Virus record (IMG/VR): IMGVR_UViG_3300028805_000075
Coordinates: 1 to 64,000 of that record
DNA from: a virus
Lineage: Duplodnaviria; Caudoviricetes
Direction: 5' to 3' (one strand)
DNA: 64,000 bases
Of this stretch, positions 1,355 through 1,443 are shown piece by piece (position 1 is the first letter of the stretch; every line of letters begins with the position of its first letter). A program made the translations under genes and the position numbers. Under the pieces are notes generated by a model that was given only the letters and a program-made list of their open reading frames with translations, ran no database searches and was not told the DNA's origin.

Positions 1355-1443
1355 CAAGACGCATTGTGGGAATTGAACCCAAAGAATAATTTTTACAGAA
1401 TTATTATGTATCCATCTTCAAATAAAATTGCTGTATGCGTCTT
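1355..1443 (-). ncRNA. CAGCAA-motif RNA with Tyr anticodon-arm and T-arm mimic
   Basis: AAGACGCA-TACAGCAA...TGCGTCTTG closing stem; internal AATAATT-CTGTAAA-AATTATT and TGGG-TTCAATT-CCCA hairpins. Confidence 0.7.

What the first reader, a model, noticed from the sequence alone, without database searches (positions are those of the whole stretch)
1355..1443. Anticodon-arm mimic (Tyr GUA loop) displayed on a CAGCAA scaffold
Seen: a 7-bp AU stem with loop CUGUAAA, identical to the anticodon loop of the phage's own tRNA-Tyr (6039-6127), followed by a T-arm-like hairpin, with no acceptor/CCA end. Its payload complements that of the YrlA-like copy, which has D/T/acceptor arms but no anticodon. Inference: a decoy substrate for Tyr/Q-family anticodon nucleases or modification enzymes.
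Basis: partly seen in the sequence, partly recalled or inferred. Interest (0 to 1): 0.72.

Follow-up and report, generated by a model that had tools for sequence, protein, structure and literature searches.

The report
tRNA-mimic RNA for phage Ro60-like protein
This 94-base stretch of a phage tRNA operon is most likely a small non-coding RNA that joins a conserved "handle" to a tRNA-Tyr look-alike body, and it probably partners the phage's own Ro60-like ring protein in a Ro/Y-RNA-type particle that I found in neither Rfam nor the papers searched.

Summary
On the minus strand, 1353-1446 folds into a 12-bp closing helix followed by an unpaired ACAGCAA. Next come a D-loop-like GG, a 7-bp A-U hairpin with loop CUGUAAA (identical to the loop of the phage's tRNA-Tyr) and a canonical T arm. 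There is no acceptor stem and no CCA.

It is one of at least five "helix + CAGCAA" RNAs in this 121-kb TAG-recoded phage. All lie on the strand of ORF 8287-9780, a DUF2828+vWA protein. The AlphaFold model of that protein matches Ro60 over its whole length (Z 17.5).

- The same handle recurs in many IMG/VR phages.
- The gene was found in 26 of 29 records that carry the handle, against 4 of 19 records without it.
- Within 10 kb of the gene there were 37 handles (36 on its strand), against 3 in distant control regions.
- Related handles carry whole or partial tRNA bodies. Nine of 12 hairpins 5' of the T arm have anticodon-type loops, with eight different triplets.

The best reading is a Y-RNA-like partner of a divergent phage Ro60, with a tRNA-mimic effector module. 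A decoy role against anticodon nucleases remains possible but untested, and the loops are not Tyr-specific. Earlier notes of this scan report the same RNA-protein pairing in at least 220 other genomes.

The parts
1353..1446 (-). The whole RNA element: closing helix, ACAGCAA handle, tRNA-Tyr-like body
   Evidence: Sequence. Fold: 12-bp helix, A-U hairpin and T arm, z = -3.1. Found by the scaffold scanner.
1435..1446 (-). 5' strand of the 12-bp closing helix; starts U-U-U-A-A-G and includes the family's outer U.G wobble
   Evidence: Helix statistics for the family are: the outermost pair is 5'U.G3' in 69 of 180 members, and the 5' strand is purine-rich.
1428..1434 (-). Invariant single-stranded ACAGCAA motif (the 'handle')
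   Evidence: invariant in the alignments of family members.
1406..1427 (-). Linker with a D-loop-like GG (1413-1412) in a 3-bp mini-hairpin
   Evidence: the Rfam tRNA alignment places this stretch on the D arm. A GG is kept in all 12 tRNA-type relatives.
1385..1405 (-). Anticodon-arm mimic: 7-bp A-U stem with loop CUGUAAA (1392-1398), anticodon position GUA
   Evidence: The loop is identical to that of tRNA-Tyr at 6039-6127.
1367..1381 (-). T-arm mimic: 4-bp stem with loop UUCAAUU
   Evidence: The GGTTC..TCC core is invariant among relatives.
1353..1364 (-). 3' strand of the closing helix, ending C-U-U-G-A-A. The next tRNA starts 4 nt downstream, at 1348.
   Evidence: tRNA at 1190-1348.
2645..2770 (-). 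Paralogue on the same handle with a YrlA-type payload: T arm, capped acceptor hairpin, D arm
   Evidence: Rfam YrlA 39 bits, below the gathering score of 69. Fold; scanner hit.
9793..9837 (-). Handle-only copy (7-bp helix + CAGCAA, no tRNA-like payload) in the 5' leader of the Ro60-like gene, ending just before its ribosome-binding site
   Evidence: Sequence; fold.
8287..9780 (-). Gene for the presumed protein partner: 497-aa DUF2828 + DUF7788/vWA protein with a Ro60 fold
   Evidence: Pfam. AF2 model with pLDDT 85 and pTM 0.84. The top 12 Foldseek hits are all Ro60/TROVE. VIA-align Z 17.5 with 403 residues aligned to 1yvr. The MIDAS DxSxS motif is invariant.
6039..6127 (-). The phage's canonical tRNA-Tyr(GUA) with encoded CCA; the reference for the loop identity

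Best explanation
The element is a small non-coding RNA of about 94 nt. It belongs to a widespread phage family built from a constant handle and a variable payload.

- Handle: an 8-12-bp helix joining the 5' and 3' ends, followed immediately by single-stranded (A)CAGCAA.
- Payload here: a tRNA-Tyr-derived body with a D-loop GG, an anticodon arm with loop CUGUAAA, and a T arm. The handle helix sits where the acceptor stem would be.

The handle is most likely the binding site for the phage's own divergent Ro60 (the DUF2828+vWA ring protein, 8287-9780). On that view the RNA works like a Y RNA: the helix and motif dock on the ring, and the exposed tRNA-like module engages tRNA-recognising factors. 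Those factors could be processing, modification, repair or degradation enzymes, or host anticodon nucleases.

Shown here (computationally): the structure, the family conservation with covarying helices, the Ro60 fold of the protein, and the genomic coupling of RNA and gene.

Inferred: expression and processing out of the tRNA operon (the 3' end probably set by RNase P cutting the tRNA 4 nt downstream), physical binding, and the biological role.
For: 1. RNA family.
- The own genome holds at least five copies, all on the minus strand: 1353-1446, 2645-2770 and 9793-9837 in the window, and 119028-119104 and 120056-120116 of the genome. Their helices differ in sequence but all pair.
- About 200 strict copies were found in IMG/VR loci.
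- The helices show a strand-specific outer 5'U.G3' wobble.

2. Protein.
- The AF2 model has pLDDT 85.
- The top hits are all Ro60, including Thermus phage phiLo Ro60 and Deinococcus Rsr.
- Z is 17.5 over 403 residues, against at most 9.9 for matches to the vWA domain alone.

3. Coupling of RNA and gene.
- DUF2828 is present in 26 of 29 scaffold-positive phage records and in 4 of 19 others (Fisher p = 2e-6).
- Within +-10 kb of the gene in 20 phages there are 37 scaffolds, 36 on the gene's strand and often immediately 5' of it, against 3 in distant control regions.
- Scaffolds lie next to the gene even where no tRNA lies within 20 kb.

4. Precedent.
- Y RNAs are encoded next to Ro60 on the same strand and carry tRNA-like modules.
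- Deinococcus Yrn1 has the same D / anticodon / T order with the Ro-binding helix at the acceptor end (PMC4201824).
- Phage phiLo Ro60 binds two upstream Y-like RNAs (PMC12135203).

5. Payload under selection.
- The CUGUAAA loop occurs on six scaffolds with six different stems.
- Anticodon-type loops occur in 9 of 12 relatives.
- Reduced 'anticodon arm + T arm' members of 76-90 nt recur in unrelated phages: L252, L015, L031 and L073.
Against: - There is no evidence of expression or binding.
- The protein has no sequence-level similarity to Ro60 or TROVE.
- The motif is CAGCAA, not the GNCGAA/CGAA motif of YrlA and phiLo Yrl RNAs. It lies 3' of the helix's 5' strand rather than inside a bulged helix.
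- No Rfam family hits the element.
- The A-U anticodon-like hairpin is weak and is missing from the centroid fold.
- This copy lies 6.9 kb from the gene inside a tRNA operon, and DUF2828 genes themselves tend to sit in tRNA arrays, so part of the association could be shared neighbourhood.
- The association sample was collected through motif scans, not at random.
Confidence: 0.7

Rival explanations
1. Decoy or bait. The displayed anticodon stem-loop soaks up or senses host anticodon nucleases or anticodon-loop modification enzymes, and so protects the phage's real tRNA-Tyr. This is compatible with Ro-like binding, and would then be the specific job of the payload.
For: - The loop is identical to that of the phage's own tRNA-Tyr.
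- The loop stays constant while the stems vary on six scaffolds.
- Relatives display other canonical anticodon loops.
- The genome also carries an RNA ligase (PF09414) and two metallophosphoesterases within the tRNA region, which suggests an RNA-damage context.
- From established knowledge, not tested here: minimal anticodon stem-loops are substrates of tRNA-guanine transglycosylase, MiaA and colicin E5-type nucleases, and phage tRNAs are known to counter tRNA-cleaving defences.
Against: - No nuclease, target or cleavage data exist for this element.
- The triplets are varied and include AUA and ACA, which are not normal bacterial anticodons, so there is no Tyr or queuosine specificity.
- Many family members have no anticodon-like hairpin at all. 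The YrlA-type and handle-only copies show only 5 anticodon-type loops among 16 hairpins, in 42 members.
- A single-copy RNA is a poor stoichiometric sponge.
Confidence: 0.17
2. Decayed gene: a relic of a tRNA-Tyr-type scaffold RNA that has lost its acceptor stem and no longer has a function of its own.
For: - The L005/L006 homologue holds a complete cloverleaf that ARAGORN calls tRNA-Tyr, whereas the window copy lacks the 3' acceptor strand.
- The Rfam tRNA score is sub-threshold.
- The D region is rudimentary.
Against: - The closing helix (12 of 12 pairs), the anticodon-like stem (7 of 7 pairs), the 7-nt loop, the T loop and the D-loop GG are all intact.
- The same reduced layout recurs independently in other phages at 76-90 nt.
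Confidence: 0.07
3. Cis-acting punctuation of the tRNA operon, unrelated to the Ro-like protein. The helix + CAGCAA would be an RNase processing signal, or a boundary of mobile tRNA cassettes.
For: - Most copies lie between tRNA genes.
- The helix ends 4 nt before the next tRNA.
Against: - Copies sit immediately 5' of DUF2828 genes in phages with no tRNA within 20 kb (L247, L256).
- A tRNA array in a control region (L271) and two arrays in DUF2828-negative phages (L013, L048) have no copies.
- 36 of 37 copies are on the gene's strand.
- The helices are too short (8-12 bp) for classical RNase III, from established knowledge.
Confidence: 0.05

Closest known systems
Bacterial and phage Ro60 (Rsr) with YrlA/YrlB Y RNAs (Rfam RF02553; Chen et al. 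2014, PMC4201824)
   Same: - Small RNAs whose 5' and 3' ends form a helix next to a conserved purine-rich motif.
- A variable second module that mimics tRNA, in YrlA-type and short YrlB-like forms.
- Several copies per genome, encoded close to and on the strand of a ring-shaped HEAT+vWA protein.
- The window's 2645-2770 paralogue has the YrlA arm order.
   Different: - The protein is DUF2828, with no TROVE Pfam match or sequence similarity to Ro60.
- The motif is ACAGCAA instead of GNCGAA.
- The element does not hit the YrlA model.
- The payload has an anticodon arm, which YrlA lacks.
Deinococcus radiodurans Yrn1 (Y RNA with T arm, partial D loop and a potential anticodon arm; PMC4201824)
   Same: The topology is the same as in the finding. 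The Ro-binding helix lies at the acceptor end of a tRNA-like module, and an anticodon-arm-like hairpin lies between D-like and T-like elements.
   Different: - The Yrn1 'anticodon loop' has 6 nt and no anticodon-loop consensus, whereas the loop here is a perfect 7-nt tRNA-Tyr loop.
- Yrn1 keeps both strands of the metazoan-type Ro-binding helix.
- Yrn1 tethers PNPase; no partner is known here.
Thermus phage phiLo Ro60 with Yrl1/Yrl2 (PMC12135203; PDB 9KOP, 9L5Y)
   Same: - A phage-encoded Ro60 with its own small RNAs immediately upstream of the gene.
- The structure is among the best matches to the model (Z 14-15).
   Different: - phiLo Ro60 is a recognisable TROVE protein.
- Its RNAs use a CGAA motif in an internal bulge and are not described as tRNA-like.
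Class I RNAs of dictyostelid social amoebae (Aspegren 2004; PMC7919456; search pattern in PMC5054030)
   Same: - A short covarying helix joins the 5' and 3' ends.
- A conserved motif directly 3' of the helix's 5' strand ends in ACAGCAA.
- The RNAs start AAG and end C-U-G-U, and the rest is variable.
- This is the same handle logic and the same seven letters as in the phage family.
   Different: - They are eukaryotic, 42-65 nt, driven by a DUSE promoter, and have no tRNA-like payload.
- The known binder is an RRM protein (Rnp1A).
- Homology to the phage RNAs is not established; I checked only the published descriptions.
Canonical tRNA-Tyr, and phage tRNAs that counter tRNA-cleaving defences
   Same: The anticodon loop is identical to the phage's tRNA-Tyr. 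There is a T loop and a D-loop GG, and the element lies in a tRNA operon.
   Different: There is no acceptor stem, discriminator or CCA, so it cannot be aminoacylated. It is below the Rfam and ARAGORN thresholds.

Membership tests
YrlA-type Y RNA (Rfam RF02553) | Scores at or above the family's gathering score (69 bits) with the covariance model | tested here: not met
   There is no YrlA match in 1340-1460 even at E <= 10. The paralogue at 2637-2761 reaches 39 bits.
YrlA-type Y RNA (Rfam RF02553) | GNCGAAN0-1G motif in the 5' strand of the Ro-binding module (PMC4201824) | tested here: not met
   The element has ACAGCAAU, with CAA where YrlA has CGAA.
Y RNA in the broad sense (Ro60 partner RNA) | Encoded near a Ro60 orthologue and on its strand | tested here: met
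   The element is on the same strand as, and 6.9 kb from, a protein with the Ro60 fold. Across the family there are 37 copies within 10 kb of the gene, 36 of them on its strand. The protein is Ro60-like by structure only.
Y RNA in the broad sense (Ro60 partner RNA) | 5' and 3' ends pair into a helix that carries the protein-binding site, plus a separate effector module | tested here: met
   A 12-bp terminal helix with an adjacent invariant motif, plus a tRNA-like module.
Y RNA in the broad sense (Ro60 partner RNA) | Physically bound by the Ro60 protein | not testable with these tools
   This needs EMSA, co-purification or CLIP.
tRNA | Passes the tRNA detectors (Rfam RF00005 at 29 bits or more; ARAGORN) | tested here: not met
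   23.2 bits and no ARAGORN call.
tRNA | 7-bp acceptor stem with discriminator and CCA end | tested here: not met
   No 3' acceptor strand and no CCA. The T arm is followed after 2 nt by the closing helix.
tRNA | 7-nt anticodon loop with U33 and purine 37, and a T loop UUCRANY | tested here: met
   Loops CUGUAAA and UUCAAUU.
Dictyostelid Class I RNA | Short helix joining the 5' and 3' ends, with a conserved motif ending ACAGCAA directly after its 5' strand | tested here: met
   against the published pattern (PMC5054030) and description (PMC7919456).
Dictyostelid Class I RNA | 42-65 nt, the full 11-nt motif, a DUSE promoter, restricted to Dictyostelia | tested here: not met
   The element is 94 nt and lies in a phage. 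Only the last 7 nt of the motif are shared, and it sits in a bacterial-type tRNA operon.
Ro60/TROVE protein (for the partner ORF 8287-9780) | Matches Pfam TROVE (PF05731) | tested here: not met
   No TROVE match in the genome or in the ORF. No sequence hit to any Ro60 chain.
Ro60/TROVE protein (for the partner ORF 8287-9780) | HEAT-repeat ring followed by a vWA domain with a MIDAS motif | tested here: met
   The model aligns to Ro60 over residues 11-475 with Z 17.5. D304, S306 and S308 are invariant in 29 homologues.

The most novel reading that the evidence does not exclude
The Ro60-like ring with its CAGCAA-handle RNAs is a programmable display system. Each RNA presents a tRNA body or anticodon arm of a chosen identity (Tyr here) as bait. 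The particle could then capture, sense or neutralise host tRNA-targeting nucleases, or hand damaged tRNAs to the phage RNA ligase, in a phage that depends on its own tRNA set for TAG recoding. The shared handle would also link the particle to the unexplained Class I RNAs of social amoebae.
Probability: 0.15. Interest if true: 0.88.

Novelty: new variant of a known kind. Interest (0 to 1): 0.68.

Why it matters
If the reading is right, several things follow.

- A very large family of unknown function gains a likely RNA partner and a testable role. More than 7,000 DUF2828 relatives passed E 1e-5 among the candidates scored in one search.
- The Ro60/Y-RNA paradigm extends to a structurally related but sequence-unrecognisable protein, and to a new RNA handle.
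- Phage tRNA arrays would be shown to hide non-tRNA genes that reuse tRNA parts in at least two topologies.
- This particular member is useful because its payload is a clean, minimal tRNA-Tyr mimic. Specific partners (TGT, MiaA, TyrRS, anticodon nucleases, PNPase) can be tested directly.
- The identical ACAGCAA handle in dictyostelid Class I RNAs offers a lead on a 20-year-old open question.

Tried and rejected
- Megablast of 900-3000 against GenBank phages gave no match.
- Rfam, at gathering scores and at E <= 10, has no family for the element or for the short copies.
- TROVE and RtcB were not found in the genome.
- Sequence searches of the PDB with the protein and with its profile gave no Ro60 hit. 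Only the fold comparison did.
- MAFFT plus RNAalifold on 12 tRNA-type members recovered the closing helix, a D-like stem and the T arm, but misaligned the anticodon arms. I therefore tabulated those hairpins with a script instead.
One search added no new tRNA-type member, so the anticodon table rests on 12 hairpins.
- The records behind L007 and L009, the closest relatives at 78% protein identity, are not held, so I could not examine a syntenic orthologue. In L005/L006 the syntenic position after tRNA-Glu has no scaffold.
- Reading the copy as a true tRNA precursor was rejected, because it has no acceptor strand and no CCA.
- Pairing of CAGCAA with the 3' C-U-U-G, as in metazoan Y RNA helices, was considered and rejected. 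It would conflict with the covarying helix.
- A literal search for the 11-nt Class I motif in RNA letters found nothing. The DNA form was found in PMC5054030.
- No paper links DUF2828 or Class I RNAs to Ro60.
- Complex prediction was not used, because it does not take RNA.

Full report
**Setting.** The window is the first 64 kb of a 121,389-bp IMG/VR phage record estimated to be about 95% complete.
- Genes show in-frame TAG codons, and a tRNA with anticodon CUA lies at 7136-7212. The phage is therefore TAG-recoded.
- All eleven ARAGORN tRNAs lie on the minus strand between 1.4 and 7.2 kb.
- The finding sits in this operon, between tRNA-Glu (1481-1555) and an insert-bearing tRNA (1190-1348).

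**The observation.**
- Read on the minus strand, 1446-1435 pairs with 1364-1353 in a 12-bp helix.
- ACAGCAA (1434-1428) follows the 5' strand directly.
- A 22-nt linker contains a GG in a small hairpin.
- 1405-1385 is a 7-bp A-U stem with loop CUGUAAA.
- After three bases comes a 4-bp stem with loop UUCAAUU (1381-1367).
- Two bases later the helix closes.
- RNAfold gives this arrangement at -21.5 kcal/mol, with z = -3.1 and 2 of 200 shuffles as stable. The centroid keeps only the closing helix and the T arm.
- The loop equals that of the phage's tRNA-Tyr at 6039-6127.
- Rfam's tRNA model aligns D, anticodon and T arms at 23.2 bits, below its 29-bit threshold, and ARAGORN is silent.
- There is no CCA, although the phage's real tRNAs encode it.

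The description is therefore correct. Three points are added: the closing helix occupies the acceptor position, a D-loop-like GG is present, and the true span is 1353-1446.

**A family, not a one-off.**
- A paralogue at 2645-2770 has the same start (A-A-G-A, helix, ACAGCAA) and end, but a YrlA-type payload of T arm, capped acceptor hairpin and D arm. It scores 39 bits on Rfam YrlA, below threshold.
- A script that looks for the motif with an adjacent helix found two more copies near the other end of the genome (119028-119104 and 120056-120116). It also found six copies in each of two related phage contigs reached through a neighbouring phosphoesterase gene.
- Pattern scans of IMG/VR, filtered for the helix, gave about 200 distinct copies in many unrelated large phages.
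- The helices differ in sequence but pair. The outermost pair is typically a 5'U.G3' wobble and the 5' strand is purine-rich, so the signal is strand-specific and lies at the RNA level.
- Lengths cluster at 50-70 nt (handle only) and at 90-130 nt (tRNA-like payloads).

**The protein.**
- ORF 8287-9780, on the same strand, matches DUF2828 and DUF7788/vWA. Neither it nor the genome matches TROVE.
- An AlphaFold model built on 29 homologues has pLDDT 85 and pTM 0.84.
- Foldseek's top twelve PDB hits are all Ro60 proteins: Xenopus, human, Deinococcus Rsr and Thermus phage phiLo.
- VIA-align gives Z 17.5 with 403 aligned residues. The next class, vWA domains alone, stays at or below 9.9.
- The MIDAS residues are invariant.
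- Sequence searches do not see this relationship.

**Coupling of RNA and gene.**
- Of 29 phage records whose fetched locus held a strict scaffold, 26 encode DUF2828. Of 19 records whose locus did not, 4 do (Fisher p = 2e-6).
- In 20 phages I fetched the 20 kb around the gene and a 20-kb control region about 60-100 kb away. There were 37 scaffolds near the gene, 36 of them on its strand and many immediately 5' of it, against 3 in the controls. Scrambled 7-mers gave 0-4.
- Scaffolds lie beside the gene in phages with no tRNA within 20 kb. Some tRNA arrays without the gene have none.
- In the window itself a handle-only copy (9793-9837) lies in the leader of the gene and ends at its ribosome-binding site.

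**The payload.**
- In scaffolds where the T arm is the last element, 12 of 21 have a hairpin of at least 4 bp with a 7-nt loop just 5' of the T arm. Nine of the 12 loops fit the anticodon-loop pattern, against 7.6% expected, and they carry eight different triplets.
- CUGUAAA occurs on six different scaffolds with six different stems. Two are complete cloverleaves, and two are circularly permuted with the acceptor end capped.
- All 12 aligned members keep a GG at the D-loop position.
- Reduced members with only an anticodon arm and a T arm (76-90 nt) recur in unrelated phages. The window copy is therefore a recurrent form rather than a wreck.

**Comparison with what is known.**
- Bacterial and phage Y RNAs are encoded next to Ro60 on its strand, have a terminal helix with a conserved motif (GNCGAA), and carry a tRNA-like module.
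- Deinococcus Yrn1 has the same topology as this element, including a possible anticodon arm (PMC4201824).
- Phage phiLo Ro60 binds two upstream Y-like RNAs and recruits host PNPase (PMC12135203).
- The element here fails the YrlA model and motif, and its protein fails TROVE. It works like a Y RNA but is not a member of the described families.
- The handle is closest in form to dictyostelid Class I RNAs. Their published search pattern ends in the same ACAGCAA directly after the 5' strand of a terminal helix, and they start AAG and end C-U-G-U (PMC5054030 and PMC7919456). Earlier notes of this scan gave me that lead, and I checked only the published descriptions.
- I found no paper that links DUF2828 or Class I RNAs to Ro60.

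**Mechanism and verdict.**
- Most likely (about 0.7), this is a Y-RNA-like partner of the phage's Ro60-like ring. The helix plus CAGCAA is the docking handle and the tRNA-Tyr-like body is the exposed module.
- What the module recruits is unknown.
- The RNA ligase at 113.4-114.0 kb and the phosphoesterases in the tRNA region hint at an RNA-repair setting. This is inference only.
- The scan's earlier notes report the same RNA-protein pairing in at least 220 other genomes. My scores rest on the tests run here.

Noticed in passing
window 1190-1348 (-): A tRNA that Rfam scores at 47 bits across 159 nt. The acceptor, D and T arms are normal, but about 87 nt are inserted in the anticodon region. ARAGORN does not call it. 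A homologous insert-bearing tRNA follows tRNA-Glu in L005 (about 10840-10985).
   Followed up: partly
window 2850-3560 (-): About 700 nt with no plausible ORF and no Rfam match, just upstream of tRNA-Asp. Its 3' part is conserved in L005 (about 1100-1640), and it contains a GAGCAGCAA near 2936-2944. It may be a large structured RNA.
   Followed up: no
window 7136-7212 (-) and genes between 3900 and 5620: A suppressor tRNA with anticodon CUA, and in-frame TAG codons in neighbouring genes (the phosphoesterase at 5100-5617 and the F420-ligase-like gene at 3900-5060). This indicates that TAG is reassigned.
   Followed up: partly
window 9793-9837 (-): A handle-only CAGCAA RNA lies between the promoter-like TATA-rich stretch and the ribosome-binding site of the Ro60-like gene. 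The position would allow the protein to regulate its own translation.
   Followed up: partly
G000 119892-119961 (-), outside the window (L003 1628-1697): A skipping-rope RNA (RF02924) at 41.4 bits, above its gathering score of 36.7, lies inside a second tRNA cluster that also holds the two short CAGCAA RNAs.
   Followed up: no
G000 113424-113975 (-), outside the window: An RNA-ligase-family ORF (PF09414, 60.7 bits, 423-aa frame) lies a few kb from the second tRNA / CAGCAA-RNA cluster. The genome has no RtcB.
   Followed up: no
window 960-1185 (-) and 5960-6035 (-): Further stretches without credible ORFs contain T-loop-like GTTCGA hairpins that neither ARAGORN nor Rfam calls. They may be additional tRNA-derived elements.
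   Followed up: no
window 6340-6786 (-): A nucleoside 2-deoxyribosyltransferase-like protein with a weak TIR_2 match is embedded among the tRNAs. It is syntenic in L007 and L009.
   Followed up: no
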